From: a virus
Direction: 5' to 3' (one strand)
IMG/VR virus record: IMGVR_UViG_3300045988_070370
Span: 1-64,000 of that record
DNA length: 64,000 nt
Shown: in pieces, positions 23,533-42,606 of the stretch
Layout: each line of letters opens with the position of its first letter
Numbering within the stretch: position 1 is the first letter of the stretch
Position numbers and translations under genes: made by a program
Notes under the pieces: generated by a model
Databases searched by the model: none
Seen by the model: the letters and a program-made list of their open reading frames with translations, nothing else
What the model was told of the DNA's origin: nothing

Positions 23533-23655
23533 ATAAAAATAAATGGAATATATTGATTTATATAAAACTTTAAATATTAAACTTTGCAAATACTAACAGA
23601 TTGAAAGTTTTATCCAAATTAAAGAAACAAAAAGTTTCAGAATGAAAGTAAATAT

Positions 23656-23682
23656 CCCCCGAAAGCCTTATGCTTTCAGGGG
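23656..23682 (-). terminator. hairpin terminator after the giant gene
   Basis: CCCCCGAAAGC-CTTAT-GCTTTCAGGGG (one bulge) lies 10 nt beyond the stop at 23693. A T-rich run follows on the minus strand. Confidence 0.55.
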
Positions 23683-23692
23683 ATAGCCATAT

Positions 23693-26600
23693 TTATTTTT
23701 TCTTAGCATTCGCTTTCTGGTTAGCCACAACTACCTTGTTAGCCTTCTCCAGCACGGAAATAATCTTCTTTCTCAGTTCACGAATCTGTTTCATGTCCTC
23801 AGCGTTGTAGGCATCCTTGCCATCATCCAGAAAACCTTTCTTCAACTCGGAAATCTCCTGCTTATCAAGGGAAATCTCATCAATGGCATCAATGGCAGCC
23901 TTGTTGGTGTTGTAGTAGCCATCACTCTGACTAGGAGCCGTATCAACCAAGAGGTCATAGGAAGTCTTGAATCCGTTCAGTTTGGTGTAGAGTTGTTTCA
24001 GCTTCAAGTCCTCGAAATCATCCTTTGGGGTAGCATGAGCCTTGTATATATCCTCGGCATTCAACTTGTGAGGTCTATACTCCTCCCCACTCTCCTCAGC
24101 ACGTTCCTTCTTCTTGTCTTCCTCATACTTCTTCACCTTCACATCATCCTGCTTATACTGCTTATACTCCTCTGAGCCGTAGAACCGCTCCAGCATAGAG
24201 TAATCTCCATCCACCTTAGCTTGTTTCTTCAACTTGCTCAGGGTATTGGCTGCACGGTCGTGGTTCTCCTTCATATCCCAGAACTCATCACCTTGTTTCT
24301 TTGTAACCGGTCTATCATCAGGATTGCTGACGAACTTGCTGAATAATGGAATATCAGCCACCTTGATTTCCTTCGGGTCGTTGAGTGACTTGGTAAGAAC
24401 ACCGAGCACCTGACTGCCCATGGTGTAAGCACCACCGAGATAAGAAGACAATACATGGTCAACCACAGCAGGGTTATTCAGATTGTATCTTGGGTCACCG
24501 AAAGCATCTATGCTATTCTGCTGCACATCAGGATAGTCGTTTCCGATTGAGTTAACCATCTTGGACGCACGAACCAACCAATCAGGAGTGCCCACGTATG
24601 CCTTGGTAAAGTTAGGATCATACTTGTTGTACTCTGTGTCCTTGAATAATGGCTTGCCAGTGAAGTCAACATTGAAAGCCAACTCAAAGACTGGACGAAT
24701 AGCATTCGGCATCAGACTGACCGCAATATTGCCATCATATCCAGTAGGGTCGAGCGGAAGCATATCCACCACCTGACCGAGCAAGTCTTCACCATACTGA
24801 CTCCAACTCTCCTCAGCCAACTCGCCACCCATCATCTTGGATGCAATCATATCACCCAAGCCATAGAAAGCACGGAACTCCTGAGCAAGAGGAATCTTCA
24901 CAAACTCATGAGTAAACGGAACCCACATAATCAGGTTGTTTCGTCTATCCCACTTGGTGAACTGCCAGTACTTATCCTTATCATCATCACCACCCAACAT
25001 ACTCATCAAGGCAGCATTAACGATAGGAACCAGTACACCACTCGCCAACCATGATGCAGTAACAGCCGTAAACTTGAAAGGATGATGCTTGACAAGCGCA
25101 CCCAAGGTCTGCAAACTCTGTACCGCTGGATTGATGAAGAGATAGAGGTTTCTAATCATCTGCCAGCCATATTCGCCAGTACCCTTGCGGTTGAAGTTCA
25201 GGGTCACGTCCTTGGCATCATTCACCGCCTCATCAATGGAACGTCCATACTGAATAGAGGTCATGTAAACCGCAAATCGGTTACTATCCTCGATTGCTCT
25301 ATTCAGGAACTCGATACCATCCATGATGGTGTGCCCTACCTTTACTGGGTTCGCCTTCCATCTATCCAAATCCTTCAAGTCGTTCTTGAATTTCTTCTTC
25401 AAGTCTTCCACGTCAAGCGAAGAGACAAAGCCAGTCTCGCCACCATTCATCATAAAGTCATAGAACATCTGTTCCTTTGGAGTAGCGTTTCCGTTGTTTA
25501 CCTTCTCTCTCAACTTGCCGTTCTGATAGTCTCTCAGCATGAAACCGAGATTCCAAGAGGTAGCCAGATTCTTTCTTAGCATATAGTTGTATCTTCCATC
25601 CTCACGAATAGCGGTAGATGCAAGGGTCATGGTCAGGTCTCGGAAGTAGTTGGAAGGGATGAAGAGAGGTGAAAGACTGGTATAGGCAGCAGCCATCTTT
25701 CTGCCCAACCAAGCAGCAGCCCTATCAAGTTTGCCGCTCTGAATCTCTCTTACTCGGTGTGCTCTAGTATTGTTCATCGCCTGAGCCAACTGAGGGTCAC
25801 CATTCACATAGATAACGTACTCCTCGCCATCCTTCATCACTCTTACCTCATGTTCTCTCTCCTCGCTGTGAGTCTGAGGATAGGCTATGTTCAATCCGTC
25901 TCTCTTCTGAGTAGCATCGCCAGTCTGAGCCATCTGCTCCATCTTCTTCTCGAAAGCATCAATGGCAGTCTTCACCTGATTACTATTCATCTGAGAAGTA
26001 ATCTGAGGTGTAGCAGGAATCCACTCTTCGTTTCCGTTGGCATCCGTACTCTTCACGTACCAAGCCTTGCTCAGGGTCAGCAGGGAAGTTGGATGATTCT
26101 GAGCCAAGAGCATCAGGTGTTGCTTCACCCAGTTCTTGTTGTTCAGCAGGATTCCACTCTCTGCCATATTCTCGATGTAGGCGATAGGGTCGTCAGCGAT
26201 AGAGGTTCGTCCGTGTGCCGTTTTCAAGGTTTGATTGAACGCACCCTTGCCACCACCAATATAGTCCCATACTTGGTCGGCAGTAGTGCCATCCCAGCCA
26301 CGGAGAGGAATATAATGGCTATACATATCTCGCACATACTGATAAGTATCTTTGCTCATCATGCCAGCCTTATAGCCATCACGGAGAATCTTCTTGGTAG
26401 CCGCATTCGTTGCGTCCCAGAGGTTGTGAGTCTCGGTTATATACTTACTCTCAATATCCTTTATCAGTTTGTGGGCAGCTTCCTCGAAGTCTGAGCCATC
26501 AAATAGAGCAGACAAGCCTGAGTAATCGTAGGCGATACCCATCTTATCATAACGATAGTTCATATAGGATGGAGAGTATTTCACTCTGAGTGCATTATCT

Positions 26601-29600
26601 CTCTGTCTCCAAGTAGTGAAGTCTATGTAGCCAAGTTCAAAGCCGCTATCATTGCCCATTCGGTTCATGTCGCCCTTGTAAGCCCTGTATGCCGCACTTC
26701 TCTGAGCCACGTCCTCATAGTCAGCTTCCAGAGACTTCTTGAAAGCCATCTGAGCATCACGCTCCAAACCATGCTTAGCCATCATGTAGATACGGACATT
26801 GTCATAACTATCACCCAGCACCTTCTTCATCTGATGATAAGCCTTTCTCAATGGCTGCAAGAACTCATTGTTGTACTCCTCGAACTCGTTCTTACCCTTG
26901 CCATGACTTCTGTTCTCGGCAGTATAGGCATCCTCAGCCATGTTCAGGCGGTCAACACCCACTTCCTTCATAATAGCTTCCTGAGCCTTGCGGATAGCCA
27001 GCATACTATCTTGGAAGGCGATTCTTTTGAGCACAGAACCACGCTGCAACTCTCGGTTGAACTCTCCAAGGGCAGTATCATCACTCAGAAGATGCTGTTC
27101 GTAGGTTGGAGCAGTCTTCCACAGAGCCATCTGTTTGCGGTAGTCGTCCACTCTCCTCAGGAAGTCAACGGCACTCTCGCCAGCGTTGCGTTGTGGGATG
27201 GATGGTCGCTTGGCATCCTTAGGCAGATTATTATCCTTCTTCCACTGGTTCAGGTCGTGCTCAAACTGGTCATAGCGCAAGGAGAATCGGGTATTACCAA
27301 CGATATTGGCATTGTTCTCATCGAATATCACGTAGTTGTAATCGCCTTCCTTAGCACCGCCAAATATATTACCAGCCTTATACTTGATACCAGTGAAACC
27401 AATAGAAGACAGGAACTTACTAACTGCACGACTAGCATCTACATCTTTCCACTTTTTTGTTCTTCTTAAAGCATACATTAGAAAATCATAGGCATTACCG
27501 CCAAATGAACCATCAAAAGAAAAACCACGCTTTTTAAAGTCGTCAAAATCTATTTTTAATCGCCTTAATTCTTTAATGATTGTATTCTTCTGTTTATCTG
27601 TCAAAGGAGCATCCCAATCAAGATAATCTCCATTATCATCAGGAATATCCACATCATAAAGATAAGCAATATTATCAGGAACAGCTATTTCCTCATTCTT
27701 CTTTGCAAGAATATTGCTAAGTTCCTTTAAATCATCATCATCAGGGAACATTTCTAGAGCAGAAGGAAGGTCTTTTCTCATAGCATCCAATCCCTTGTTT
27801 ACATCTTTATATTTATAGATATATTGTCTTACCATATCTTTGTTATTGGCAGACATATCTGTCACAAATTCAAAACCGCCATTATCTTTCCTTATCTTGG
27901 CACGTCTTGTGTAGTCCTCAGCAATATCCTTAGAGTTAGTAACATAACCACCCCAGCCAAACGCTTGTGAACCTTCGCCTTCACCCATGTGGCTGAAATC
28001 GAACTTATCAAAGCTAGCCCCAGTACCATGATAGGTGCGGATGCTAAACTTAGGGTCAGAACCAGTAAGCAGTGGAGCAATCACATGCTCGGTCAACTGG
28101 GTAGGGATTCCGTTGCCGATGATGGTATGGCTCAGATTTTCAGAGAATGGCATCTTGTAATCATCGCTCACTCCTGATACTCTTGCGAGCACTCTGCCCA
28201 TAGCACGATACACCTTGCCATCAGGCATAACAATCACATCACCACTCTTGGTTCGGAGCGTTGGCAGGAGTTCGTCAGCAAAGGCATGAGGAATCTTGCC
28301 ATCAGCATAAGCACTACCCATCACATACAATGGCTTGTCAATGTTTCTCCAGTCAATGCCATCAGCCTTCAAGCGAACGTCCATCCAAGGAGCCACACCA
28401 TTCTTCTTCTCGGTCAGTGTCGGGATAATATCAGCCACAGCTTCATACCATCCGCTCTTGTGTGCCATCTTCTTTGGCTTGTCAGGAAGTTTGCCATCAC
28501 GAACCGCACGGACAATCAATCTCTCTCGGTTGGTGTAGCCGCCATAGTCAGCAGCATTATAGACATCAGCATCCCAAGTATAGCCATTGGCATCCAGCGC
28601 ATCCGTGATAGTCTTCATCGCTTCTGAATCCTTATATCCCTTCACGTTTTCAATGGTCACAACCTTTGGCTTGATAGCATTGATGAACTCGGCAGTACTT
28701 GCAGCAGTCTCCTTGTCAAGTTCCAACTCAGCATGGTTACTCTTCGCCTGAGAGTAGTTCTTGCAGACTGGGCTGGCATGGAAGTACTCTACCTCGCCAT
28801 CTATCTGTTTCACCAACTCCTTAGGGTCAACATCACGAACATCAGCAGTAACGATGTGCTGTCCGAAGTTGTTGCGATATACACCGCTTATCTTCTCATC
28901 ATACTCCACTGCCACTACTGGGTCGATGATACCCTTCAAGCCTTCCTCAACAAGACCGCCACCGCTAAAGTATGTTCCAGCCTTAATGAGAGTGCCATCC
29001 TTCAGGGAGAACTTAGGCTCCTCGCCAGCAATCTCTGCCTTGCGGTTCTCGCCCAGAGCCTGAGCAATATGAATCATCTTCCTGTTAGCCATCTGCCAGC
29101 CGCTCGGCATATCATCAATGGCAGTCTTGATAGCATCATCCACCTCATCAGGAGTGTTCAGACTCTTCAAGTCCTCAGCCATATCAGCCGCCCCACTCTC
29201 CTTTCCGTCAGCCATATCACGGAGAGAGAAGGACACATCGCCAACGCCCAAGAAAATCTGGTCTTTGCGAGCCACGTCCTCAGTAGATTCAGCGAGAGTT
29301 TTTCTTCTCTCCTCAGGAGTCATGTTAATTCGGGCAGACACATTACGAGCTTCCACCTCTCCAGCGAGTGACTTGTAACTGTTGTAATCATCATTCGCCT
29401 GATAAGCATTATAAAGACCTCTGTTCTTCTCAACAATAGCCTTAGCCTCATCTTCCTTGCCTTCTGCACGCAACTGGCGAATCTGCTTAGTAACCTCTGC
29501 TAATCTCTTCTTAATCTCACCTCTAACCAATCTAGGGCTACCTCCTCTATCAAAGCCCTCAATAGACTGGATTGCATGCTGAATCTCGTGATTCAATATA

Positions 29601-35600: not shown

Positions 35601-38600
35601 ATTGTACGATGAACGTTGCCATCAGCATCCTTGGTCTCCTGAATCCAGCCGTTGCCCAACTTGTCGGAGTACTGCCACTGAATGTTGGCACCCATCATCT
35701 TAGCCAGTCTCTCGAAAGCCTTGCGAGTTTTCTGCCCCACGATGTTGTCAACGACCTTCATATCATCCACCTTATTCTTCTCTACGTCGGCTGCACGCTC
35801 GGCAGTTGTCTGCTGCTTGCCATTCTCCTTAGCAGAGAAAGGAAGGTCAGATTCATCAAGTTGTTCACCCAAAGGCTTCTCATCCGTTGCATCCTCGGGA
35901 GCCTCAATAGCATTGCTACCCTCTCTTAGTGTGTCAGGGAACTTTGTCTGCTCATTTACAAAATCTCTAAACTCTTTAGCGGTAGCAGCATCATAGAACG
36001 TTGCACCTTCTGTGATTTCGCTATCTATATTAGAAGAATGATTGAGGTCACGTCCTGCATTGAACTCCTCTTGCAGTTTTCCGAGTTGCTCAACGACTTC
36101 CGCATTGTCTGGGAAATAAATCACTTGGTTTATATTCTTGCCCTCATCAGGAACAAGAGTACTAACACCAAAGCCATCTTTGCACATCAAGAACAAATCA
36201 GCGTAGCTATTTAACTTAGATGTAGGGTCTATCTCTAAGCCTTGCTTCTTTGCCCATTTTGCAAGTTCTATAATATTGTTATTAATAGGTTCTCCTTGTT
36301 TATCAATAGCTGGTAAATCTATATTCTCCTCAGCCTTTTTCTTTTCCTCTTCTGCTTTCTTCTCCAGTTCAGCCTTTTTCTTTTCTTCCTCCTCCTTAGC
36401 TTTCTGTTGCTCGTAATATGCAGCATTCTCAGCAGCAGTCCTTTCTTCTTCAATGAGTTTTTCTGCCTGAGCGATACGAATATTCTCAATAAAACTTCTT
36501 GCTTCCGAAGCCTTGAAACCGCTTGTGAGCACATCAATAAGAGCATTACGAATATCTTGTGTATCGAGAGATTCAAGGTTGGATGGACGATTATCCCACA
36601 GACTATGTACGAGTGCATCTATAGTCGTTCCTTTGCCATCAGCAGCGAGCAACTGGGTCTTGGCAAAGTCTTCTCTGCTCAATCCAGTCTCTTGCTTAAC
36701 ACCCTTGCTTGTTTCTGTTCCCTCATAGTTGAGAGAGTGAGCACCGAGGTTGCTAGCCACATACTCCTCAGCAGTAAGCGGAATGGTATCTGTCACATCA
36801 ATGCCTGTACCATCATACAGACGATGCAGCAGAGTTCCAACCGTCTCCTTATAGATTTGAGCAACAGCCTCTGCATCATCCTTCACCGCACTCTTCAAGC
36901 GAGCAAACTTTCTTCTTGCCTTCTCAATAAGATTCTTTCTGCCCTCAGCAGTATCTTCCACCTTGGCAAGTTGTCGCTCATTATAGGCATCACGGATAGC
37001 GATAGCAGAGTCATAAGCCGCCTGAGCATCAGCAATAGCCTTCTCCTTAGCATCCTTGGAAGCCTTCTGTTCTAAGAAAGTCTTACCCTTCACGGTCATG
37101 TTGTTAGCCTTGTCGAGTGCCTTCTTTGCATCAGACACATATCCAGATACGATACTATCTGCATCCTCACCAAACTGATTATCATATAGCTCAGCAGTCT
37201 GTGCGGCAGTCAGCTTCGAGAAGTCAGGATTGCCATCCTCCAGCATAGGTACGATGGTTCCATCTTCAAGGGTAATGGTAGGAGCAGCAGGAGTCTGTTC
37301 TGTTGCAGGAGTCTCAGTAGTCTCATCAGAAGGAGCAGTAGTCTCTGTATTCTCTGCTACCTCAGGAGTTGTTTCATCCTCTATTGTAGGAGATTCCACC
37401 TCTATCTCACCTCTATTCTCTCCACTATTATCCTCTATCATTGAGGAGGCAGCAAATGCTTGCTTATACTCATCGAGCGACATAGAAGAGATTGTAGCCA
37501 CATCTTCTTTGTTCACAGCATGAGGAACAATAGTACCATCACTCTTCAACTCAACTACCTTAGCCTTAGCACCAGTATCACGAATAAGGAACAACTTGGA
37601 GTCAGGGTATTTAGTGTTACCATCCTCATCAAGTACATCAACGAGCACCACGTTTCCATTATCATTAAGTATTTGATTGAAATCAAATGAAGGTTGAGTC
37701 TCTTCTGTCTCCTGAGTCTGTTGGTCTGCACGTTCCTTCTCCAACTGCTCACGCTGAGCCTTAGCAGCTTCCAGTCTCTTCTGGTCTTCCAAGTCTTTCA
37801 TCTGCTGCAAGTCTGCAAGCGAATAAGGATTCTCCACCACGTTACCATCTATAGAGACAGCAGCAGTACCATCACCATAATCAGCCAACACCTCATAGGT
37901 ATGTTCAATACCATCAGTATCAGTCACATTGAACTGAGAGCCAACCTCTACAGTTCCGTCAATGATGCCAGCAATCTCTTTGATAGCATTCTCTTTTGCA
38001 TCAGCTACCGCCTGAGCCTTCACATCATCAGCAGGAAGTTCTTCACCCAGTTCAGCAAACATCAACGCATCAGCATGTTCTACACTATTCGTTGTCGGGT
38101 CGTAGTAGAGAATCATATCATCACTATTGCTTACATCAATAGAACCATCTTCATGAGTAGCAATATTACCGCTGATAATATACACACCATAATCTTCCAA
38201 ACCGCCTGATGCTTTGATGGTAGCGTTACGAACGGAGCCACGACTTCGGTCTGTGTACATATCCACTTTCTGTGCCGCCTGATGAGCAGCTATATCAACC
38301 TTGTCTTGTGCATCATCAATCACACCTTGGTATCGGGCAGAAGACAACTGATAATCATAGATAGCTTGGTCAAGTTTATCATCCTGTCCTGTCAGGGATT
38401 CCAGTTCCTCATCACTCATGGCAGATAGCTGCTGCTCAGAGATGCCAAATGCTGCTGCAAGAGTCTTCATCTGGTCTTCCTGCTGAATCTGAATATCATG
38501 CTTGTCTGCATCATCTGCATTATGACCTTCCGTATAAGCATCATCAAGGTCGTTTGATAATGTTGGAGCAGTATCACCTTCTTCAACCTTATCTTTTGTC

Positions 38601-40747
38601 TTTGCATCTGATGCCTGATTGAATCCACGAAGTTTGCTAAGGAACATAGCATAATTGATAACTGCACCTTTTTGCTTAGCAGTCATGGAGTCTGAGCGAG
38701 TAGCATCCAAGACAGTCTTAGTCAAGTCTGCATTGGTTGACACATCAATTTTGCTTTTTATTTCGTCCCAATTATCATTAAACAACCATTGACCGAACTT
38801 GTCTGCTTTGTTGACCTGATGCTTAATCTTGAAATATTGAACTGCATTTATAGCGCCAACAGCAGTTCGAGGAGCCTGCATGAAACCAACAGAATAGAAC
38901 ATTCCAAGGCAAGTATCAATCTGCTTTTCTCTCGCATCAGGATTTGTGAAAACATTGAAGTCACTCCAGCTTCCGTCTCCATCACCCCATGCAGCATGAA
39001 GGGCAGTACCAAATTCCTCTTCGGAAATCTCAGCCATCACACCTTGTATTCCAGACTTGTTGGTTGCATTGCTCAACCATTTATAGTAAGCATTATTGCC
39101 TATCTTTTCAAAGAAGGAAGATACTTTTGAAAGACCCAACTTAGACAACAACTTAGACGCACCAGGCAGATACTCACCGAACATTTCCGAGAAGTTCTCT
39201 ATTGTAGCTGAGCCAAAGCCATCCTTGATAGCCTTACCAAGACTGACACCTTCATTGAACTTCAAATCGCCATTCTTGTCTTGGGTCACACCTCCATTCT
39301 CGTTGTTCATTCCAACATAACGTTCTATCACATTATTATATGTAGAACCAAGTTGGTTGGTAGCTGCCAATGCTGCACTACCAGTCATATCACCGAGCAT
39401 ACGACCAGTATTTTTAGTAAACCATTTGCCAAGAGCACCGAGAGCCATTTTCTCTCCAACCTTTTCTCCTGTCTTGGTGAAACCAGTGGTCATAACATTT
39501 CTCCAGCCGCTTAACGCAAAGTCTCCCATGAACTTTAAGGAGCGACCGCTCACATCTCCATACTGATAAGCCTTTGTGCCATACTGCTGCTGTTTAGCAG
39601 CTTCTCCTTGTTGCTGCTGAATAGCACCAAGCATAGCTTGTGCTGCATTTCCTGCATTGGAACCTTTCTTGATTGTTCCATCTTCCATGCCCTTCTTTAC
39701 TTGGAGCAAATTGTTTGATATAGCTGCATCCATAACACCCTGAGAATATAACTTCGGGTCAAGCATGGTATTAAACATCGCACCAAAATAATTGGAAACG
39801 TCATTCCACTTATCTTTCCACCAACCAGCATTTTCATTTCTCTGCTTTTGTTCCTTCAACTCCTGAAGCAGAGTTGTACGCAACATCTGATTGTAAGCCT
39901 TGGCGGTATTATAAGCACCATACTCTACATCAGACAAGCGGTTTGCCTCATTGCTTATAGCTGTATTAAATGAAGAAGGAGCAACTGCTCCACCAGATGC
40001 AACAAAAGGAGAACCCTGCAAGTGCATAGACTCATTCAATTCCTTAGAACGTCTGTCCTGATTCTCGTTAAGCCACTCTTGTCTTCTCTCCATTTGTCGC
40101 ATAGCAACATCTGTGTCGGACAAATCTGGGTCAGCCTTATCCAATTCAGAAGGAACAATGCCCATATCAACTGCATTGTTCCACTCTTCCCCATATTTAT
40201 CCAACTGGTTCTGATACTGGGAAGCATCATACTCGTTGTCGAACTCTACACCATCTGTTGTAGTATAGGTTCCAGTCTTGCCTGTTGTCGAATTGTAGTT
40301 GAACTCATTCTTCTGTACATTCTTATTCTGTAAAGGATTCTTGAAACCGATAGTCACCTTACCACCATTTGCATTAAACTTCTTTGCTCGCTCAACCGTC
40401 TTACGGATATTGCCAGATGCACGCTTAACTTGTCTAGCAGTATTCAGGACAGATTGTGTCACAGACAAGTAACGAGCACGGTCAGCAGCACTCATAGGTA
40501 CACTACCACCCTTCGCCCTTGATGATGTCCTACTACGAGGTACAAAGAGTGCAGAATAGAAACGCTCATAAGTAGATGGAACATCAAAGTTCTGAGCCTT
40601 CAAGTTCTCATAAATAGCGTGTCTGTTATCTGCACCGCTCTTTCCGTCTCTGGTCAGGGCACTTTCAAACTTATTGTAATCATCAGGCACATCATAGTTC
40701 TGTGCTTTCAGATTCTTGTATAAAGTGTATAATGGTCTTTCTGCCAT
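23693..40747 (-). CDS. giant polyvalent (multi-enzyme) virion cargo/ejection protein, 5,684 aa
   Basis: A single uninterrupted 17,055-nt ORF. It contains two HExxH modules, a complete C5-MTase motif set, a PPase-like module, three ART-like modules, acidic and coiled-coil linkers, and a C-terminal region with hydrophobic helices. This architecture matches the polyvalent proteins described for phages and conjugative elements (Iyer, Burroughs, Aravind and co-workers). Confidence 0.9.
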   Translation of the reverse strand: MAERPLYTLYKNLKAQNYDVPDDYNKFESALTRDGKSGADNRHAIYENLKAQNFDVPSTYERFYSALFVPRSRTSSRAKGGSVPMSAADRARYLSVTQSVLNTARQVKRASGNIRKTVERAKKFNANGGKVTIGFKNPLQNKNVQKNEFNYNSTTGKTGTYTTTDGVEFDNEYDASQYQNQLDKYGEEWNNAVDMGIVPSELDKADPDLSDTDVAMRQMERRQEWLNENQDRRSKELNESMHLQGSPFVASGGAVAPSSFNTAISNEANRLSDVEYGAYNTAKAYNQMLRTTLLQELKEQKQRNENAGWWKDKWNDVSNYFGAMFNTMLDPKLYSQGVMDAAISNNLLQVKKGMEDGTIKKGSNAGNAAQAMLGAIQQQQGEAAKQQQYGTKAYQYGDVSGRSLKFMGDFALSGWRNVMTTGFTKTGEKVGEKMALGALGKWFTKNTGRMLGDMTGSAALAATNQLGSTYNNVIERYVGMNNENGGVTQDKNGDLKFNEGVSLGKAIKDGFGSATIENFSEMFGEYLPGASKLLSKLGLSKVSSFFEKIGNNAYYKWLSNATNKSGIQGVMAEISEEEFGTALHAAWGDGDGSWSDFNVFTNPDAREKQIDTCLGMFYSVGFMQAPRTAVGAINAVQYFKIKHQVNKADKFGQWLFNDNWDEIKSKIDVSTNADLTKTVLDATRSDSMTAKQKGAVINYAMFLSKLRGFNQASDAKTKDKVEEGDTAPTLSNDLDDAYTEGHNADDADKHDIQIQQEDQMKTLAAAFGISEQQLSAMSDEELESLTGQDDKLDQAIYDYQLSSARYQGVIDDAQDKVDIAAHQAAQKVDMYTDRSRGSVRNATIKASGGLEDYGVYIISGNIATHEDGSIDVSNSDDMILYYDPTTNSVEHADALMFAELGEELPADDVKAQAVADAKENAIKEIAGIIDGTVEVGSQFNVTDTDGIEHTYEVLADYGDGTAAVSIDGNVVENPYSLADLQQMKDLEDQKRLEAAKAQREQLEKERADQQTQETEETQPSFDFNQILNDNGNVVLVDVLDEDGNTKYPDSKLFLIRDTGAKAKVVELKSDGTIVPHAVNKEDVATISSMSLDEYKQAFAASSMIEDNSGENRGEIEVESPTIEDETTPEVAENTETTAPSDETTETPATEQTPAAPTITLEDGTIVPMLEDGNPDFSKLTAAQTAELYDNQFGEDADSIVSGYVSDAKKALDKANNMTVKGKTFLEQKASKDAKEKAIADAQAAYDSAIAIRDAYNERQLAKVEDTAEGRKNLIEKARRKFARLKSAVKDDAEAVAQIYKETVGTLLHRLYDGTGIDVTDTIPLTAEEYVASNLGAHSLNYEGTETSKGVKQETGLSREDFAKTQLLAADGKGTTIDALVHSLWDNRPSNLESLDTQDIRNALIDVLTSGFKASEARSFIENIRIAQAEKLIEEERTAAENAAYYEQQKAKEEEEKKKAELEKKAEEEKKKAEENIDLPAIDKQGEPINNNIIELAKWAKKQGLEIDPTSKLNSYADLFLMCKDGFGVSTLVPDEGKNINQVIYFPDNAEVVEQLGKLQEEFNAGRDLNHSSNIDSEITEGATFYDAATAKEFRDFVNEQTKFPDTLREGSNAIEAPEDATDEKPLGEQLDESDLPFSAKENGKQQTTAERAADVEKNKVDDMKVVDNIVGQKTRKAFERLAKMMGANIQWQYSDKLGNGWIQETKDADGNVHRTIFITLDSSITEGAQFIFGHEMTHQIKSLNPAAYNELTQLVLDTYGSDAFDKAVDETMLRYSDAGFSGRARDYYAEEVVADAVGEMIRDLNLAHTLAMKMSHPLLAAIHEILQKIKLAFFGTEYSDVTKNIIRSIEQAYVKTAKGEVTNSETGEDVSFSLRQKPEPKKKGVGYKVFVLKDGKLYPPMVANPDGAATPVGVWLDADAAPIAGESKTGRPQVKQGGKGTQGGSGKLAYRPGWHLGVVPYAIQFNRKDAEGNKTLFPKNFVFAEVEYAADVDYQEEARQEGINPSGKYQHSLAGLKHLPTDGYYMYRTNPNPETDPWVITGAMKVNRILTRAEQADLVSKAGREPQQIQEGDIVTDDVVNSINQEIADAPKFSIKTYHGSQASFDKFDHSFMGSGEGAQAYGWGTYVSEVEGIAKAYAKQNAKKNAPSRLMYQDKPMTYKTPSIIYQVAFNMDKFNISAKEAISQMIDAGEKKLASVDDTPFAKMKAKQVQDELNVLKGLNPSDFKINEDYDTVAQNLADTKSGLDLLEDELKDAKSYVDLYQSRLDEAKGELSKAKESGTGLGVDMYESDVMYYSEQVEKYKQNVKTKESDIKDVKTKIDALQKKLDSIGKPRNLYSVDIPDDTGDNYIGWDEPITPKMLEAKRRVMEEDGYTMYDSDGNYDYFEKTENGKYQYWQLWNRQKGNGLYSELSKVLHSDKLASLALNKQGIVGVKVIADRTTGGNKEGKMNYVIFDENNAQITNHTKFSLRLKSAIEETETNPSDAQKESGNYKKGHIKFGGYDYTIENPKGSTRSGKDANGKEWKVTMHDTYGYIRGKFGKDGDHLDMFINDKADLDNWDGDVFVVDQVNPDGSFDEHKVMYGYDSMDDAEKAYLANYSKGWKGLGNITGVSKDEFDKWLDTSKRKLKPFKDYTKVKFSLKDNQGNPLNQDGTLKLDKIKSVDELTDEDFLHPTRNVELPSLPKKIADAIGTEGKPVVIKKNIFERNYMRHKDVTPELSKVIFKSALYNPDLYGQNQKKTRPYNWVLINTKDEKGNNRTVLLEVNPNKDNVEIVHWHFVNDKNLGLIKKQAIREGDQVLILPSEQSEEVGGLSNLTDDLSAAKIDNSSETAKENGEKFSLKDEKTLAGVHNITEEKLRKALKLGGFANPSLAVIDTNKSGHDNFGEISFIAPSALVDKRTGKTAGTWITDAYTQRYPSVERQMSEKGSQKFEDWVDSLEYPSAAKAEIKRQTKDVMEDNGVPAWELMYLKEKGIDIKAYDSRIDYRWKEIINDHPTAEDILSSMQNDPELNEKVTSLAKHAIIHPTWEKVSLEVRRKMYKETGVKASPINPQVRKQTKEIFERDYKSTLLNKDGSPRKKDVKKVVEDIVKEHNDTKKYDFYLSKVKASNYVNKNGLYDDYIRWQENKLDEFGTKNRIFRGYTKDGSRKYVPETLENVSKAMREEADGQTNGSEYTSFGSFIAKLASRVDSTDEMRANKDKLSSNEDKEAFYEKWSEVYYDLAKFLYNDVFYGEQRLHDIVLQSDPKKYAKKEYGITLTPTFMKKLDALKNAVQTELKSAYFETKYNRPLRLNEFAAAVVPDNLGEDVRKGIEDAGLPMYDYDPNKEGDRSRAFNEAINSSDNIRFSLKAEKEKIVADAKSNGTYMTAPNGEKTKLDAEQWATVRTANFKNWFGDWENDPENASKVVDENGEPMVMYHYTDESFTIFGKDKEVGKNTFGNATNASYAATTTIGHWFTSNKKQPEYMGKPMACFLNIVEPFDGYTLEGLADYLNNYISDEDFNSYEEDYENVAPIIEAGNNFREEQIRDGYDGVVIDDEEFGGTSYVAFNANQIKSAENNNGDFSADNNDIRFSLAGERGAAAADKAEERTARMDFLSVARKMEEEKKDAKAIKMATGWERGADGKWRYEMPDAKIKDTMDVGGGQIVKRYEEDMLWNGGKLSKVIDAPELFKAYPQLKDVRIETDAIMNDMPSNGEYNAKTNTITIHADELKYMNSILNHEIQHAIQSIEGFDRGGSPRLVRGEIKKRLAEVTKQIRQLRAEGKEDEAKAIVEKNRGLYNAYQANDDYNSYKSLAGEVEARNVSARINMTPEERRKTLAESTEDVARKDQIFLGVGDVSFSLRDMADGKESGAADMAEDLKSLNTPDEVDDAIKTAIDDMPSGWQMANRKMIHIAQALGENRKAEIAGEEPKFSLKDGTLIKAGTYFSGGGLVEEGLKGIIDPVVAVEYDEKISGVYRNNFGQHIVTADVRDVDPKELVKQIDGEVEYFHASPVCKNYSQAKSNHAELELDKETAASTAEFINAIKPKVVTIENVKGYKDSEAMKTITDALDANGYTWDADVYNAADYGGYTNRERLIVRAVRDGKLPDKPKKMAHKSGWYEAVADIIPTLTEKKNGVAPWMDVRLKADGIDWRNIDKPLYVMGSAYADGKIPHAFADELLPTLRTKSGDVIVMPDGKVYRAMGRVLARVSGVSDDYKMPFSENLSHTIIGNGIPTQLTEHVIAPLLTGSDPKFSIRTYHGTGASFDKFDFSHMGEGEGSQAFGWGGYVTNSKDIAEDYTRRAKIRKDNGGFEFVTDMSANNKDMVRQYIYKYKDVNKGLDAMRKDLPSALEMFPDDDDLKELSNILAKKNEEIAVPDNIAYLYDVDIPDDNGDYLDWDAPLTDKQKNTIIKELRRLKIDFDDFKKRGFSFDGSFGGNAYDFLMYALRRTKKWKDVDASRAVSKFLSSIGFTGIKYKAGNIFGGAKEGDYNYVIFDENNANIVGNTRFSLRYDQFEHDLNQWKKDNNLPKDAKRPSIPQRNAGESAVDFLRRVDDYRKQMALWKTAPTYEQHLLSDDTALGEFNRELQRGSVLKRIAFQDSMLAIRKAQEAIMKEVGVDRLNMAEDAYTAENRSHGKGKNEFEEYNNEFLQPLRKAYHQMKKVLGDSYDNVRIYMMAKHGLERDAQMAFKKSLEADYEDVAQRSAAYRAYKGDMNRMGNDSGFELGYIDFTTWRQRDNALRVKYSPSYMNYRYDKMGIAYDYSGLSALFDGSDFEEAAHKLIKDIESKYITETHNLWDATNAATKKILRDGYKAGMMSKDTYQYVRDMYSHYIPLRGWDGTTADQVWDYIGGGKGAFNQTLKTAHGRTSIADDPIAYIENMAESGILLNNKNWVKQHLMLLAQNHPTSLLTLSKAWYVKSTDANGNEEWIPATPQITSQMNSNQVKTAIDAFEKKMEQMAQTGDATQKRDGLNIAYPQTHSEEREHEVRVMKDGEEYVIYVNGDPQLAQAMNNTRAHRVREIQSGKLDRAAAWLGRKMAAAYTSLSPLFIPSNYFRDLTMTLASTAIREDGRYNYMLRKNLATSWNLGFMLRDYQNGKLREKVNNGNATPKEQMFYDFMMNGGETGFVSSLDVEDLKKKFKNDLKDLDRWKANPVKVGHTIMDGIEFLNRAIEDSNRFAVYMTSIQYGRSIDEAVNDAKDVTLNFNRKGTGEYGWQMIRNLYLFINPAVQSLQTLGALVKHHPFKFTAVTASWLASGVLVPIVNAALMSMLGGDDDKDKYWQFTKWDRRNNLIMWVPFTHEFVKIPLAQEFRAFYGLGDMIASKMMGGELAEESWSQYGEDLLGQVVDMLPLDPTGYDGNIAVSLMPNAIRPVFELAFNVDFTGKPLFKDTEYNKYDPNFTKAYVGTPDWLVRASKMVNSIGNDYPDVQQNSIDAFGDPRYNLNNPAVVDHVLSSYLGGAYTMGSQVLGVLTKSLNDPKEIKVADIPLFSKFVSNPDDRPVTKKQGDEFWDMKENHDRAANTLSKLKKQAKVDGDYSMLERFYGSEEYKQYKQDDVKVKKYEEDKKKERAEESGEEYRPHKLNAEDIYKAHATPKDDFEDLKLKQLYTKLNGFKTSYDLLVDTAPSQSDGYYNTNKAAIDAIDEISLDKQEISELKKGFLDDGKDAYNAEDMKQIRELRKKIISVLEKANKVVVANQKANAKKK
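23696..27274 (-). other. giant protein aa 4492-5684: C-terminal helical region with hydrophobic (membrane-insertion?) helices
   Basis: Contains DSNRFAVYM...AKDVTLNFNRKG and the hydrophobic stretch HHPFKFTAVTASWLASGVLVPIVNAALMSML (about nt 24985-25090). Ends in a Lys/Glu-rich coiled coil. Confidence 0.4.
27275..28048 (-). other. giant protein aa 4234-4491: ART-like module copy 3
   Basis: KFSIRTYHGTGASFDKFDFSHMGEGEGSQAFGWGGY ... YDVDIPDDNGDYLDWDAP ... DYNYVIFDENNANIVGNTRFSLR is collinear with copy 1. Confidence 0.35.
28058..28999 (-). other. giant protein aa 3917-4230: embedded DNA (cytosine-5) methyltransferase domain
   Basis: Motif I is YFSGGGL (nt 28955-28969). Motif IV variant is ASPVCKNYS (Cys3995). 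Motif VI is TIENVKGY (nt 28643-28651). Motif VIII variant is YTNRERL. Motif X is GNGIP (nt 28103-28117). Confidence 0.8.
29219..30022 (-). other. giant protein aa 3576-3843: zincin-like HExxH module 2
   Basis: GWERGADGKWRYE...AYPQLKDV...SILNHEIQHAIQSIEGF (HEIQH at nt 29576-29590, aa 3720-3724) ... SLAGEVEARNVSAR. This is a signature common in polyvalent proteins. Confidence 0.5.
30023..30712 (-). other. giant protein aa 3346-3575: ART-like module copy 2
   Basis: NFKNWFGDWEND...VVDENGEPMVMYHYTDESFTIFG ... DGYDGVVID ... TSYVAFNANQIKSAENNNGDFS...DIRFSL. The pattern matches what I recall of the ART-PolyVal family (WFGDS.VVDE.G.P.VVYHGT ... QIKSA.N.G.F). Confidence 0.4.
30713..32221 (-). other. 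giant protein aa 2843-3345: conserved-looking module of unknown function (LAGVHNITEEKLRKALKLGGFANPSLAVID...)
   Basis: About 500 aa between two KFSLK/RFSLK boundaries. No catalytic motif recognised. Confidence 0.35.
32222..32821 (-). other. giant protein aa 2643-2842: possible PBECR-type (Barnase/EndoU/RelE-fold) nuclease module
   Basis: The pattern VVIKKNIFERNYMRHKDVTPE...RTVLLEVN...NVEIVHWHF resembles phage PBECR domains. Assignment is from memory only. Confidence 0.25.
32822..33334 (-). other. giant protein aa 2472-2642: inorganic-pyrophosphatase-like module
   Basis: IENPKGSTRSGKDANGKEW...YGYIRGKFGKDGDHLDMFI...DEHKVMYGY...AEKAYLANYSK parallels the family I PPase signature (EIP.G...KYE.D...G ... 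YG(F/Y)I..T...DGDP.DVLV). Confidence 0.45.
33335..34471 (-). other. giant protein aa 2093-2471: ART-like module copy 1
   Basis: Begins KFSIKTYHGSQASFDKFD and ends MNYVIFDENNAQITNHTKFSLR. This is a paralog of aa 4234-4491. The HG[ST]...F..F start and YV.F end recall PARP/ART-PolyVal-type ADP-ribosyltransferase folds, an assignment made from motif memory only. Confidence 0.35.
34472..35122 (-). other. giant protein aa 1876-2092: module of unknown function (GYKVF..DGKLYPP ... AYRPGWH)
   Basis: Delimited by FSLR (aa 1872) and FSIK (aa 2093). No enzymatic motif recognised. Confidence 0.4.
35135..35839 (-). other. giant protein aa 1637-1871: zincin-like HExxH module 1
   Basis: FIFGHEMTHQIK (HEMTH at nt 35534-35548, aa 1734-1738), bounded by the FSAK and FSLR boundary motifs. 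Confidence 0.5.
40544..40732 (-). other. giant protein aa 6-68: tandem peptide repeat
   Basis: LYKNLKAQNYDVPDDYNKFESAL and IYENLKAQNFDVPSTYERFYSAL are two copies of a roughly 23-aa unit separated by about 14 aa. Confidence 0.7.
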
Positions 40748-42598: not shown

Positions 42599-42606
42599 CA
42601 AAGATA
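42599..42606 (-). promoter_or_regulatory. -7 promoter box (TATCTTTG on minus strand) for the giant-gene operon
   Basis: Plus-strand CAAAGATA, 32 nt upstream of the start at 42567. A second candidate, TAACTTTG, is at 42662-42669. Confidence 0.5.

What the first reader, a model, noticed from the sequence alone, without database searches (positions are those of the whole stretch)
23693..40747. Single 5,684-aa polyvalent protein occupying 27% of the window
One uninterrupted 17-kb ORF strings together at least ten modules. In order they are:
- an N-terminal peptide repeat followed by about 1,600 aa of Gly/Gln-rich and acidic linker sequence
- HExxH module 1
- an unknown YKVF/RPGWH module
- ART-like module 1
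- a PPase-like module
- a possible PBECR nuclease module
- an unknown module of about 500 aa
- ART-like module 2
- HExxH module 2
- a C5-MTase domain
- ART-like module 3
- a C-terminal region of about 1,190 aa with hydrophobic helices

The gene is co-transcribed with two small Q/K-rich proteins (41908-42567 and 40767-41903) from one -7 box. This fits the polyvalent-protein concept: effector arrays delivered with the DNA to pre-empt host defence. The size and domain combination are at the extreme end of what has been described. No separate tape-measure or ejection gene is visible in the window.
Basis: partly seen in the sequence, partly recalled or inferred. Interest (0 to 1): 0.75.

Follow-up and report, generated by a model that had tools for sequence, protein, structure and literature searches.

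The report
Giant cassette-built phage ejection protein
A 5,684-residue gene in a gut Prevotella-type temperate phage belongs to an already known and very common class of virion-carried multi-enzyme "polyvalent" proteins; its unusual feature is that its enzyme modules are joined by one repeated five-residue motif that looks like a cutting site.

Summary
The ORF is real: 23693-40747 (-), 5,684 aa, about 638 kDa, 26.6% of the window. At least 10 independent metagenome assemblies recover it at full length.

It is a member of the known LPD38-type phage polyvalent proteins. I found 5,333 family representatives; 19 of the best 146 are longer, up to 7,236 aa, so the size is high but not extreme.

Homologues in phages JC1 and phi24B are found in virions by proteomics. 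The phi24B authors propose theirs is an ejection protein.

The gene is last in a three-gene unit bounded by a -7 box and a terminator hairpin. The first gene is T7 gp14-like, so an ejection gene is visible.

The "1,600-aa linker" is wrong. Residues about 400-900 are a widely conserved N-terminal module. The protein is built as conserved N module, variable cassette array, conserved C module.

New here: a motif [K/R]-[F/Y]-S-[L/I]-[K/R] marks all 11-12 module boundaries (0.29 expected by chance). Relatives swap modules exactly at it. It occurs only in the clade that also carries the first HExxH module. I infer self-processing into about 10 effectors; this is untested.

The parts
42599..42606 (-). 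Bacteroidetes-type -7 box TATCTTTG, 32 nt upstream of the first gene of the unit. It is a candidate promoter only.
   Evidence: The pattern occurs 84 times in the window against 52.7 expected, so a single match is weak evidence; only its position is suggestive.
41908..42567 (-). Gene 1, 219 aa: T7 gp14-family internal virion (ejection) protein candidate. It has an N-terminal Gly-zipper hydrophobic segment (residues 2-20) and a Q-rich helical body.
   Evidence: PF24072 T7_gp14: E 1.1e-5, 25.8 bits against GA 27, protein residues 3-173 on profile positions 3-176 of 187. BKO1-TP3 gp57 (52% identical) hits the same family at E 6e-5. Most of the 120 listed near relatives carry precomputed PF24072. 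Hydrophobic segment.
40767..41903 (-). Gene 2, 378 aa: Q/K-rich, no family assignment. It occupies the position of the virion proteins found just upstream of the giant gene in related phages.
   Evidence: Homologous to BKO1-TP3 gp56 (31% over 133 aa). No Pfam, PHROG or PDB hit. JC1 gp68, in the same position, is detected in virions.
23693..40747 (-). Giant polyvalent protein gene: 5,684 aa, about 638 kDa.
40547..40729 (-). N-terminal tandem peptide repeat, residues 7-31 and 43-67. It is the most invariant part of the N-terminus among relatives.
   Evidence: 14 of 25 positions identical. Residues 1-78 are largely invariant in an 18-sequence alignment that reaches down to 26% identity. BKO1-TP3 gp55 shows an analogous doubled motif.
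35840..40747 (-). N segment, residues 1-1636. It contains the widely conserved N-terminal core (about residues 400-900, including a weak LPD14 match at 514-591), followed by acidic, less conserved sequence.
   Evidence: The AF2 model is unusable (pLDDT 48.8).
35135..35839 (-). HExxH-1 cassette, residues 1637-1871. It starts at PFSAK and has HEMTH at 1734-1738 (nt 35534-35548) and EEVVAD about 55 residues downstream. Candidate gluzincin processing peptidase.
   Evidence: H, E, H and EExxAD are invariant in 10 clade members. 4 of 10 members weakly hit DUF6782 'putative metallopeptidase' (best E 5e-4). The module is present in 11 of 12 motif-clade representatives plus P0285, and in 0 of the other ~136. 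No PDB sequence hit.
34472..35134 (-). Cassette M1, residues 1872-2092: YKVF/RPGWH module of unknown function. Starts at S-FSLR.
   Evidence: phrog_30118, E 1.6e-34. Junction motif.
33347..34471 (-). Cassette M2, residues 2093-2467: ART-like module 1 with a coiled-coil insert. Starts at K-FSIK.
   Evidence: ART-PolyVal E 1e-6, 30.1 bits, below GA 31.2; DUF3990 E 0.003. Paralogous to M10.
32834..33346 (-). Cassette M3, residues 2468-2638: family-I inorganic pyrophosphatase of the polyvalent type. Starts at K-FSLR.
   Evidence: PF18823: E 1e-52, full length. It also matches the C-terminus of a solved phage portal, 9b41_L (E 2.5e-25). 48% identical to the InPase of BKO1-TP3 gp55.
32234..32833 (-). 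Cassette M4, residues 2639-2838: LPD13. Starts at K-FSLK.
   Evidence: PF18825: E 1e-48, full length.
30713..32233 (-). Cassette M5, residues 2839-3345: PBECR5 RNase-like N-terminal part plus about 400 aa of unknown function. Starts at K-FSLK.
   Evidence: PF18814: E 1e-19, profile positions 12-108 of 239. phrog_22978: E 1.7e-21.
30035..30712 (-). Cassette M6, residues 3346-3571: ART-PolyVal module 2. Starts at R-FSLK.
   Evidence: PF18760: E 3e-18, 67 bits, full length.
29231..30034 (-). Cassette M7, residues 3572-3839: LPD23 plus HExxH-2 (HEIQH at 3720-3724, nt 29576-29590; GEVEAR downstream). Starts at R-FSLA.
   Evidence: PF18838: E 1e-11. DUF6782: E 0.023. phrog_13543. No PDB hit.
29012..29230 (-). 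Cassette M8, residues 3840-3912: short acidic 73-aa segment with no assignment. Starts at S-FSLR.
   Evidence: It is found only inside the motif clade.
28049..29011 (-). Cassette M9, residues 3913-4233: C5 cytosine DNA methyltransferase. Starts at K-FSLK.
   Evidence: PF00145: E 5e-30. Motifs FSGGG, SPVC, ENVKG, RERLIV and GNGIP align to M.HaeIII.
27287..28048 (-). Cassette M10, residues 4234-4487: ART-like module 3, a paralogue of M2. Starts at K-FSIR.
   Evidence: ART-PolyVal E 1.2e-5 and DUF3990 E 9e-4, over the N-terminal ~45 residues only. Alignment to M2.
23696..27286 (-). C-terminal module, residues 4488-5684, starting at R-FSLR. Mostly helical. It contains one TM-like helix (5234-5252, nt 24992-25048) and the Pfam LPD38 core (5258-5468, nt 24344-24976). 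This is the family-defining anchor of the giant podophage proteins.
   Evidence: PF18857: E 9e-23. phrog_14770: E 1e-92. 337 phage records. 5,333 representatives, always at the extreme C-terminus. AF2 pLDDT 72. The fold is shared with at least 70 viral models and with no PDB entry. TM-like helix.
23653..23685 (-). Intrinsic-terminator-like hairpin (14-bp stem, 7 G-C pairs) with a T-rich tail, 8 nt after the giant gene's stop codon.
   Evidence: 4 such sites in 1.5 kb against 0.8 expected.

Best explanation
**What it is.** The window is essentially one ~64-kb temperate podovirus-like phage of a Bacteroidales host, most likely Prevotella. Genes 41908-42567, 40767-41903 and 23693-40747 form one late transcription unit that encodes the internal, ejected virion proteins.

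**The giant protein.** It is an LPD38-type polyvalent protein built in three parts:
1. A conserved N-terminal module.
2. A variable array of about 11 cassettes.
3. A conserved ~1,200-aa helical C-terminal module with one membrane-type helix.

**How it most likely works (inferred).**
- It is packaged in the capsid.
- At infection it leaves through the tail together with the gp14-like protein and gene 2's product.
- The conserved end modules serve packaging and conduit or membrane insertion.
- The cassettes act in the new host as early effectors. A C5 methylase could protect incoming DNA. ART-like modules could modify host defence or expression factors. InPase could clear PPi or nucleotide signals. 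A PBECR RNase could cut RNA.

**Specific to this Prevotella-phage clade.** Every cassette begins with [K/R]-[F/Y]-S-[L/I]-[K/R]. I infer that this is a processing site. The clade-specific HExxH-1 gluzincin cassette, which always immediately precedes the first full site, would cut there. The 638-kDa precursor would then be released as about 10 separate 8-58-kDa effectors plus the N and C structural fragments. The same junction makes cassettes exchangeable between phages.

**Shown versus inferred.**
- Shown: architecture, family membership, motif statistics, breakpoints, co-distribution.
- Inferred: packaging (from homologues), ejection, cleavage, and which peptidase does it.

**Sub-probabilities.** Polyvalent LPD38-family member 0.95; packaged and ejected 0.75; motif is a cleavage site 0.45; HExxH-1 is the enzyme 0.35.
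For: **Family.**
- Pfam and PHROG hits.
- The C-terminal module is found in 337 phage records, including BKO1-TP3 gp55 (5,553 aa), Bcep22 gp75 and 933W p72.
- It is found in 5,333 representatives, always at the C-terminus.
- Its fold is shared with at least 70 viral models.

**Packaging.**
- JC1 gp69 and the two genes upstream of it are detected in CsCl-purified virions.
- phi24B gp47 is abundant in virions and absent from the external cryo-EM density. Its authors propose it is an ejection protein.
- An InPase of this type is fused to a solved phage portal.

**Ejection context.**
- T7_gp14 hits for gene 1 and its orthologue.
- A TM-like helix at a conserved position in this protein, BKO1-TP3 gp55 and Bcep22 gp75.
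- Bcep22 gp75 has an N-terminal SLT domain, as T7 gp16 does (the T7 gp16 comparison is from my own knowledge).
- LT_GEWL-bearing relatives appear in the fold search.

**Transcription unit.**

**Three-part build.** N core. Variable middle.

**Junction motif.**
- 11 FS[LI][RKA] sites against 0.29 expected (maximum 3 in 2,000 shuffles). Every FS[LI] in the protein lies at a domain boundary. A 12th variant, PFSAK, starts the HExxH-1 cassette.
- Codons for the motif differ between sites, including AGC versus TCN for Ser, so selection acts on the peptide.
- Relatives join different cassettes exactly at the motif: breakpoints 2096|2638, 3574|4485 and 4237|4484.
- 108 instances in 14 clade proteins, median spacing 234 aa.
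- Enrichment occurs only in the clade with at least 53% C-terminal identity.
- The HExxH-1 module has the same distribution: 11 of 12 clade representatives plus P0285, against 0 of ~136 others.
- The first full site always lies 132-154 residues after the HExxH-1 histidines.
- H, E, H and EExxAD are invariant.

**No competing protease.** No prohead protease was found in the structural module.
Against: - There are no direct data for this phage: no virion proteomics, and no evidence that any site is cut.
- The co-distribution of motif and HExxH-1 may reflect a single evolutionary event in one clade, so it is confounded by phylogeny.
- The HExxH-1 peptidase assignment rests on motifs and sub-threshold DUF6782 hits. 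There is no PDB or Pfam MPTase-PolyVal match.
- For the ART-like cassettes the motif abuts the first strand of the domain (FSIKTYHG). It could therefore be a structural N-cap rather than a cleavage site.
- Most family members (more than 130 representatives, plus BKO1-TP3 gp55 and 933W p72) have no such motif. Processing at this motif is clearly not required for the family's function.
- The gp14 hit is below Pfam's threshold. Gene 2 and the giant protein show no similarity to T7 gp15 or gp16.
- The C-terminal model matches nothing in the PDB.
- The effector targets are all inferred from family names.
Confidence: 0.7

Rival explanations
1. The protein is packaged and ejected but is not cleaved at the motif. 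The pentapeptide would be a structural start-of-module element (a first beta-strand or N-cap), or a neutral linker that tolerates in-frame recombination. It would persist because cassettes are copied together with their own N-terminal edge.
For: - In M2 and M10 the motif runs straight into the ART first strand, FSI[KR]TYHG.
- Over 130 other family members function without it.
- ArdC and TraC1-type polyvalent proteins are transferred full length (PMC5512222).
- phi24B gp47 is reported as a large virion protein, and the passages I read do not mention any processing of it.
Against: - The motif precedes modules of entirely unrelated folds: InPase OB fold, Rossmann-fold methylase, LPD13, and the helical C module. 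A shared structural role is unlikely.
- It sits in short linkers 3-17 residues before the first profile-matched residue of most domains.
- Codon variation shows selection on the peptide itself.
- Its strict co-distribution with a zincin-like cassette is unexplained under this view.
Confidence: 0.35
2. The motif is a cleavage site but is cut by another protease: HExxH-2 (M7), an unrecognised phage maturation protease, or a host protease. HExxH-1 would be an effector aimed at host proteins or peptidoglycan.
For: - A second HExxH cassette exists.
- Iyer et al. note that the metallopeptidase (MPTase) domains of polyvalent proteins may act as effectors.
- The phi24B authors assign the MuF-C metallopeptidase a cell-wall role.
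Against: - M7-type cassettes occur in 18 representatives outside the motif clade and in only 7 of 12 inside it. HExxH-2 therefore does not track the motif.
- No maturation protease was detectable near the capsid genes.
- The only other protease in the window (47926-49116) has a signal peptide and lies in the lysogeny region.
Confidence: 0.12
3. The protein is not packaged. It would act in the producing cell late in infection, for example to methylate progeny DNA or to shut down abortive-infection responses.
For: - It is encoded with late and structural genes.
- A C5 methylase could protect progeny DNA before packaging.
- There are no direct virion data for this phage.
Against: - Homologues sharing the C-terminal module are virion components in two independent proteomic studies.
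- The gene is co-transcribed with a gp14-like internal virion protein.
- The C-terminal module and its position are conserved across thousands of phage proteins whatever the enzymes.
Confidence: 0.08
4. The ORF is an assembly chimera or a decaying pseudogene.
For: None beyond its unusual length.
Against: - The identical 5,684-aa product occurs in at least 10 independent assemblies, with 5,681-5,734-aa variants.
- All catalytic motifs checked are intact.
- Relatives over 4,000 aa occur in dozens of genomes.
Confidence: 0.01

Closest known systems
LPD38-type phage polyvalent proteins (Iyer, Burroughs, Anand, de Souza & Aravind 2017, PMC5512222). Examples: Burkholderia phages Bcep22 gp75 and JC1 gp69 ('DarB-like'), Stx phages 933W p72 and phi24B gp47, Bacteroides phage BKO1-TP3 gp55.
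   Same: - The same ~1,000-1,200-aa C-terminal module with the LPD38 core and a TM-like helix, at the extreme C-terminus.
- The giant gene lies at the end of a structural operon, preceded by one or two small virion-protein genes.
- A variable enzyme array in the middle.
- A podovirus-type portal and capsid context.
- BKO1-TP3 gp55 also shares the N-terminal module and the InPase.
   Different: - The enzyme set differs. There is no SNF2 helicase, N6-methylase, SLT, LPD5/LPD1 or MuF_C here. Instead there are three ART-like modules, a C5 methylase, InPase, LPD13 and PBECR5.
- The regular [KR][FY]S[LI][KR] junction motif and the HExxH-1 cassette are absent from all four named comparators and from over 130 other representatives. 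Bcep22 gp75 has three possibly related [K/A/R]-FSV sites.
T7 internal core / ejectosome proteins gp14, gp15 and gp16.
   Same: - A three-gene arrangement of small, medium and large proteins.
- Gene 1 matches the T7_gp14 family end to end.
- Virion-internal location in homologues.
- Some family members carry an N-terminal lytic transglycosylase, as gp16 does (the gp16 feature is from my own knowledge).
   Different: - There is no detectable sequence or fold similarity of gene 2 to gp15, or of the giant protein to gp16.
- The large protein is over 4 times longer and carries cytoplasm-directed enzymes.
Phage P1 DarB and the Dar antirestriction system.
   Same: A very large, capsid-packaged, DNA-protecting enzyme injected with the genome. 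The database label 'DarB-like' is applied to homologues.
   Different: DarB is an N6-methylase plus helicase fusion that depends on DarA and Hdf for packaging (background cited in PMC9144972). This protein has neither domain, and no Dar partners were seen. The label does not fit this member.
N4-like virion RNA polymerase (e.g. DEV vRNAP, 3,398 aa) with its ejection proteins.
   Same: A giant protein that is packaged and translocated through a conduit made by co-encoded ejection proteins (PMC11445570, abstract). Iyer et al. list the N4-like virion polymerase domain among the domains of phage-type polyvalent proteins.
   Different: There is no RNA polymerase module here, and the end modules are unrelated.
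Viral polyproteins and T4/phiKZ head proteins cut at short consensus sites.
   Same: If the inference holds: a short recurring consensus at every module boundary, with an embedded or co-packaged protease.
   Different: The motif and the candidate enzyme (a gluzincin-like HExxH...EExxAD cassette) are unrelated to those systems, and cleavage is not demonstrated here. This comparison rests on my own knowledge, not on a tool result.

Membership tests
Phage polyvalent protein (sensu Iyer et al. 2017) | Several unrelated effector or enzyme domains in one polypeptide, including LPD domains. | tested here: met
   InPase, LPD13, PBECR5, ART-PolyVal, LPD23, DNA_methylase and LPD38 are all above Pfam thresholds.
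Phage polyvalent protein (sensu Iyer et al. 2017) | Encoded by a phage or prophage with a portal-terminase packaging system, among late or structural genes. | tested here: met
   P22-like portal, SU10-like capsid protein and large terminase. Integrase and Rha/Ant.
Phage polyvalent protein (sensu Iyer et al. 2017) | Zincin-like MPTase domain for processing (frequent, but not universal). | tested here: inconclusive
   Two HExxH cassettes with a downstream conserved Glu. Only sub-threshold DUF6782 hits, no MPTase-PolyVal hit, and no PDB hit.
Phage polyvalent protein (sensu Iyer et al. 2017) | Packaged in the virion and delivered with the DNA. | not testable with these tools
   Only homologue evidence is available: JC1 gp69 and phi24B gp47.
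LPD38-terminal giant podophage proteins | About 1,000-aa helical module with the LPD38 core at the extreme C-terminus. | tested here: met
   PF18857, E 9e-23. phrog_14770, E 1e-92. Foldseek E 3e-47 to a Podoviridae LPD38 protein. 5,333 representatives.
T7 gp14 internal virion protein family (gene 1) | Match to PF24072 above the gathering score. | tested here: inconclusive
   25.8 bits against 27 for gene 1 and 23.4 bits for the BKO1-TP3 orthologue, both full length. Precomputed PF24072 on most near relatives. Marked 'weak'. No hit to PDB T7 gp14 by phmmer.
T7 gp15 / gp16 (gene 2 / giant protein) | Sequence or fold similarity to gp15 or gp16. | tested here: not met
   No Pfam or PDB sequence hits. 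The C-terminal model has no PDB fold match.
P1 DarB | N6-adenine methylase plus DExH/SNF2 helicase. | tested here: not met
   Neither domain was found in this protein. They are present in Bcep22 gp75, and the helicase is present in BKO1-TP3 gp55.
C5 cytosine DNA methyltransferase | Motifs I (FxGxG), IV (PC), VI (ENV), VIII (RxR) and X (GNxVP). | tested here: met
   FSGGG, SPVC (Cys aligned to the HaeIII PPC), ENVKG, RERLIV and GNGIP. PF00145, E 5e-30.
ART-PolyVal | Full-length match above GA 31.2. | tested here: met
   Module 2 scores 67.4 bits over profile positions 1-140 of 140. Modules 1 (30.1 bits) and 3 (26.6 bits, first ~45 residues only) are below threshold, so they are inconclusive.
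PBECR5 RNase | Match to PF18814 including the catalytic core. | tested here: inconclusive
   71 bits, above GA 25, but only profile positions 12-108 of 239 are covered. Catalytic residues were not checked.

The most novel reading that the evidence does not exclude
In one clade of Prevotella-type phages the giant ejection protein is a true self-processing polyprotein. A clade-specific gluzincin cassette (HExxH-1) would cut at about 12 copies of [K/R]-[F/Y]-S-[L/I]-[K/R], releasing about 10 independent effectors inside the newly infected cell (or inside the capsid). The same portable junction would work as a plug-and-play splice point, letting phages swap effector cassettes in frame. That would give the first defined cleavage code for a polyvalent protein.
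Probability: 0.4. Interest if true: 0.7.

Novelty: new variant of a known kind. Interest (0 to 1): 0.5.

Why it matters
Polyvalent proteins are thought to be the first phage weapons to reach a new host. Whether and how they are cut into working units has remained a proposal since 2017 (PMC5512222).

This clade offers a concrete and cheap test:
- about 12 predicted cut sites;
- a candidate enzyme with identifiable catalytic residues;
- predicted fragment sizes of 8-58 kDa for the effectors, plus about 180-, 26- and 137-kDa pieces.

The family is also very abundant in gut Bacteroidales: 216 stretches in GTDB species genomes and 5,333 representative clusters. A quarter of each such phage genome is therefore spent on these arrays. 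The cassette junction would explain how the arrays diversify.

If the motif is not a cleavage site, the finding is simply another large member of a well-populated family.

Tried and rejected
**Searches that gave nothing**
- Megablast of the gene against 50,697 phage records: no match.
- PDB sequence searches for gene 1, gene 2 and both HExxH cassettes, including a 10-sequence profile: nothing meaningful.
- Foldseek of the C-terminal AF2 model against the PDB: best E 0.66, noise hits to helical transporters.
- AF2 of residues 1-1200 with 18 homologues: pLDDT 48.8, so it was not used for fold search.
- Profile search with alignment A1 failed because the profile had more than 1,200 positions. It was rerun with the single sequence.
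- The search for homologous proteins lists only proteins under about 2,300 aa, so it could not give the size distribution.
- Literature search for polyvalent plus ejection proteins, and for a Prevotella DarB-like prophage: nothing specific.

**Ideas considered and rejected**
- The junction as a DNA-level recombination sequence: rejected because the codons vary between sites.
- A family-wide junction code: rejected. A de novo 4-mer search found no recurrent motif in BKO1-TP3 gp55, 933W p72 or 12 other Bacteroidales giants.
- HExxH-2 as the cognate protease: disfavoured by its distribution.
- The retropepsin-like protease at 47926-49116 as the processing enzyme: rejected because of its signal peptide and its location in the lysogeny region.
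- A prohead protease near the capsid genes: none found.
- The 'DarB-like' label: rejected for this member because it has neither a helicase nor an N6-methylase.

Full report
**1.

ORF 23693-40747 on the minus strand encodes 5,684 residues without a stop. That is about 638 kDa and 26.6% of the window. The exact sequence is present in JGI/IMG, ENA and Logan assemblies. Its 90%-identity cluster holds at least 10 independent full-length copies (5,681-5,734 aa) on contigs up to 78 kb. No NCBI full-length copy was seen. Megablast against 50,697 phage genomes finds nothing.

**2. Domain content**

Pfam confirms these domains, in protein residues:

| Residues | Family | Support |
|---|---|---|
| 2096-2209 | ART-PolyVal-like 1 | 30.1 bits, just under the threshold of 31.2 |
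| 2485-2621 | InPase | E 1e-52 |
| 2651-2792 | LPD13 | E 1e-48 |
| 2843-2940 | PBECR5 | E 1e-19, N-terminal 40% of the profile |
| 3408-3563 | ART-PolyVal 2 | E 3e-18 |
| 3582-3635 | LPD23 | E 1e-11 |
| 3927-4223 | C5 DNA methylase | E 5e-30 |
| 4237-4290 | ART/DUF3990-like 3 | weak |
| 5258-5468 | LPD38 | E 9e-23 |

- The methylase has motifs I, IV (Cys aligned), VI, VIII and X.
- PHROGs adds phrog_30118 for the 'YKVF' module and phrog_22978 for the ~500-aa unknown. It also matches the last ~1,100 residues to the C-termini of several giant-protein families, one of them labelled 'DarB-like'.
- HExxH motifs lie at 1734 and 3720. Support for a peptidase fold is only sub-threshold (DUF6782).
- ART-like modules 1 and 3 are paralogues.
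- The N-terminal two-copy repeat is real. It is the most invariant stretch of the N-terminus among relatives.

**3. Context**

The window is a temperate, podovirus-like phage.
- Structural genes: P22-type portal (5658-7694), SU10-type capsid protein (8865-10403) and large terminase (12210-14423).
- Other genes: endolysin, a Bacteroidetes-type tyrosine integrase (45756-46973), Rha/Ant and RNase H.
- No tail tube, sheath or tape-measure hits were seen.
- The nearest genomic relatives of the C-terminal module lie on contigs labelled Prevotella (91%, 74% and 73% identity). 216 stretches in GTDB species genomes encode relatives, mostly Bacteroidales.
- The nearest cultured relatives are the Bacteroides temperate phages BKO1-TP3, BS-TP4 and BF1-TP2 (PMC12694917).
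- BKO1-TP3 has the same local order: integrase, two small genes (159 and 371 aa), then a 5,553-aa giant. Both small genes are homologous to those here.

**4. The transcription unit**

Gene 1 (41908-42567), gene 2 (40767-41903) and the giant gene are separated by 4 and 19 nt. A TATCTTTG -7 box lies 32 nt upstream of gene 1. This is a short motif that is common in the window, so it is only suggestive. A strong terminator-like hairpin follows the giant gene's stop codon by 8 nt.

**5. There is an ejection gene**

- Gene 1 matches Pfam T7_gp14 end to end (E 1e-5, 25.8 bits against threshold 27).
- Its 52%-identical BKO1-TP3 orthologue does so independently (E 6e-5).
- Most near relatives carry that precomputed assignment ('weak').
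- It has an N-terminal Gly-zipper hydrophobic segment.
- Gene 2 has no detectable family.

**6. The family, and what is known about it**

- The C-terminal ~1,100 residues have tblastn homologues in 337 phage records: Vibrio, Ralstonia, Burkholderia Bcep22-like and Stx phages.
- Bcep22 gp75 (4,602 aa) is SLT + Eco57I-type methylase + SNF2 helicase + LPD3 + LPD38.
- 933W p72 (2,806 aa) is LPD5 + LPD1 + MuF_C + LPD38.
- BKO1-TP3 gp55 is ddrB-ParB + InPase + SNF2 + LPD38.
- In JC1, virion mass spectrometry detected the giant protein and the two proteins encoded just upstream of it (PMC9144972).
- In phi24B, the 2,811-aa homologue is abundant in virions and invisible in the external cryo-EM structure. 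Its authors propose that it is a capsid-packaged ejection protein (bioRxiv 10.64898/2026.04.10.717836).
- Iyer et al. list LPD38 and InPase as phage-only polyvalent domains. They predict packaging and MPTase-mediated processing (PMC5512222).
- An InPase of this type is fused to a structurally solved portal (9b41_L).

**7. Size is not extreme**

phmmer of the C-terminal module against 1.84 billion representatives gives 5,333 hits (1,381 at E ≤ 1e-30), always at the C-terminal end of the target. Among the best 146, the median length is 4,370 aa. Nineteen exceed 5,684 aa and the longest is 7,236 aa. In the genome loci, most giant ORFs run off a 10-kb upstream flank, meaning more than 4,100-4,470 aa.

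**8. Architecture: two conserved ends and a variable middle**

- Residues about 400-900 are BLAST-detectable in about 90-99 of 149 other family giants, near their N-termini. They show 25% identity to BKO1-TP3 gp55 over about 1,100 residues.
- The C-terminal module (4488-5684) models as mostly helical (pLDDT 72). It shares its fold with at least 70 viral models and with nothing in the PDB.
- It carries one TM-like helix (5234-5252) at a position conserved in BKO1-TP3 gp55 and Bcep22 gp75.
- The middle differs between even close relatives.

**9. The junction motif (new observation)**

- FS[LI][RKA] occurs 11 times, against 0.29 expected and a maximum of 3 in 2,000 shuffles. There is no other FS[LI] anywhere in the protein.
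- All 11 sites lie between residues 1872 and 4488, and each sits at a Pfam or PHROG domain boundary.
- A 12th variant (PFSAK, residue 1637) opens the HExxH-1 cassette and is conserved in relatives.
- The resulting segments are 1,636, 235, 221, 375, 171, 200, 507, 226, 268, 73, 321, 254 and 1,197 aa.
- Codons differ from site to site, including AGC versus TCN for Ser, so the peptide is under selection rather than a DNA sequence.
- Close relatives carry the same motif but different cassette orders, joined exactly at it. YKVF joins directly to LPD13 (giant coordinates 2096|2638). ART2 joins directly to the C module (3574|4485). The methylase joins directly to the C module (4237|4484).
- Across 14 clade proteins there are 108 instances. 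The consensus is [DEN][DN][PITV][KR]-[FY]-S-[LI]-[KR] and the median spacing is 234 aa.
- The motif is enriched only in the clade whose C module is at least 53% identical to this one. It is absent from BKO1-TP3 gp55, 933W p72 and 12 other Bacteroidales giants, in which no recurrent 4-mer exists at all.
- Bcep22 gp75 has three [K/A/R]-FSV sites of unclear relation.

**10. A candidate cognate peptidase**

- The HExxH-1 cassette (1637-1871) is found in 11 of 12 motif-clade representatives plus P0285, which also has motif sites. It is found in none of about 136 other family representatives.
- InPase, the ART cassettes, LPD23+HExxH-2 and the N core are all widespread outside the clade.
- The first full junction always lies 132-154 residues after the HExxH-1 histidines.
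- H, E, H and a downstream EExxAD are invariant.
- Weak DUF6782 and M13 hits are the only family evidence.
- No capsid maturation protease was found. The only other protease in the window is exported.
- This co-distribution may reflect a single ancestral event, so it is suggestive, not decisive.

**11. Mechanism proposed**

*Shown:* a three-gene late unit; a gp14-like first gene; an LPD38-family giant with conserved ends and a cassette array; a junction motif with the statistics and breakpoints given above.

*Inferred from homologues:* the giant protein is packaged inside the capsid and leaves with the DNA.

*Inferred from family knowledge:*
- The end modules serve packaging and conduit or membrane insertion.
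- The cassettes act early in the recipient: C5 methylation of incoming DNA, ADP-ribosylation of host factors, PPi or nucleotide-signal hydrolysis, and RNA cleavage.

*Inferred from section 9-10:* HExxH-1 cuts at the junctions, probably N-terminal to the aromatic residue, as is usual for zincins with a hydrophobic P1' residue. That last point rests on my own knowledge and was not tested.

**12. Verdict**

However, the object belongs to a large, already described and partly experimentally characterised family, and it is not exceptional in size. The linker and 'no ejection gene' statements are wrong. What is worth following up is the clade-specific junction motif with its co-distributed zincin cassette. 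It turns the long-standing 'MPTase processes polyvalent proteins' proposal into a directly testable prediction.

Noticed in passing
window 51872-51946 (+): A phage-encoded tRNA (Rfam 52 bits) with a perfect 5-bp anticodon stem and an 8-nt loop, TTCCCCAT. ARAGORN reads a 4-base anticodon CCCC. This resembles sufD-type +1 frameshift-suppressor tRNAs (my recollection). The gene ends in an encoded CCA.
   Followed up: partly
window 47926-49116 (-): A 396-aa retropepsin-like aspartyl protease (gag-asp_proteas, E 2e-15) with TPR repeats and a clear N-terminal signal peptide. It lies in a low-GC (0.34-0.39) stretch between the integrase and the Rha/Ant gene. It is probably a lysogenic-conversion (moron) gene, and unusual cargo for a phage.
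   Followed up: partly
L003 3858-4109 (933W p70) and the phi24B preprint: The 83-aa Gly-zipper 'bacteriocin' gene lies two genes upstream of the 933W giant protein. The phi24B authors dismissed a homologue of a bacteriocin found in virions as a contaminant. By position and its Gly-zipper it may be the small gp14-like ejection protein of Stx phages.
   Followed up: no
window 40547-40729 (-), giant protein residues 7-67: The doubled ~25-aa N-terminal motif ([LI]Y.NLKAQN[YF]DVP..Y..F.SAL) is nearly invariant even in 26%-identity relatives. BKO1-TP3 gp55 has an analogue. It is a candidate capsid-targeting or portal-docking signal.
   Followed up: partly
window 62914-63954 (+): A 346-aa protein with DUF7666 (E 1e-33) followed by collagen-like Gly-X-Y repeats, possibly a fibre or decoration protein.
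   Followed up: no
window 19807-20235 (-) and 4789-5346 (-); also 1940-2500 (-) and 2509-3099 (-): Two pairs of paralogous small structural-region genes: DUF7841 twice, and phrog_19255 twice in tandem.
   Followed up: no
giant protein residue 975 (window ~37820): A P-[FY]-S-L-[ANS] site recurs at a conserved position in the N segment of clade members, about 250-760 residues before HExxH-1. It is unclear whether it is a further junction or part of a fold.
   Followed up: no
L002 (Bcep22 gp75 residues 3208, 3433, 3685): Three [K/A/R]-FSV sites, preceded by low-complexity linkers, occur in the Burkholderia giant protein. They hint that related junction peptides may exist outside the Prevotella-phage clade.
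   Followed up: no
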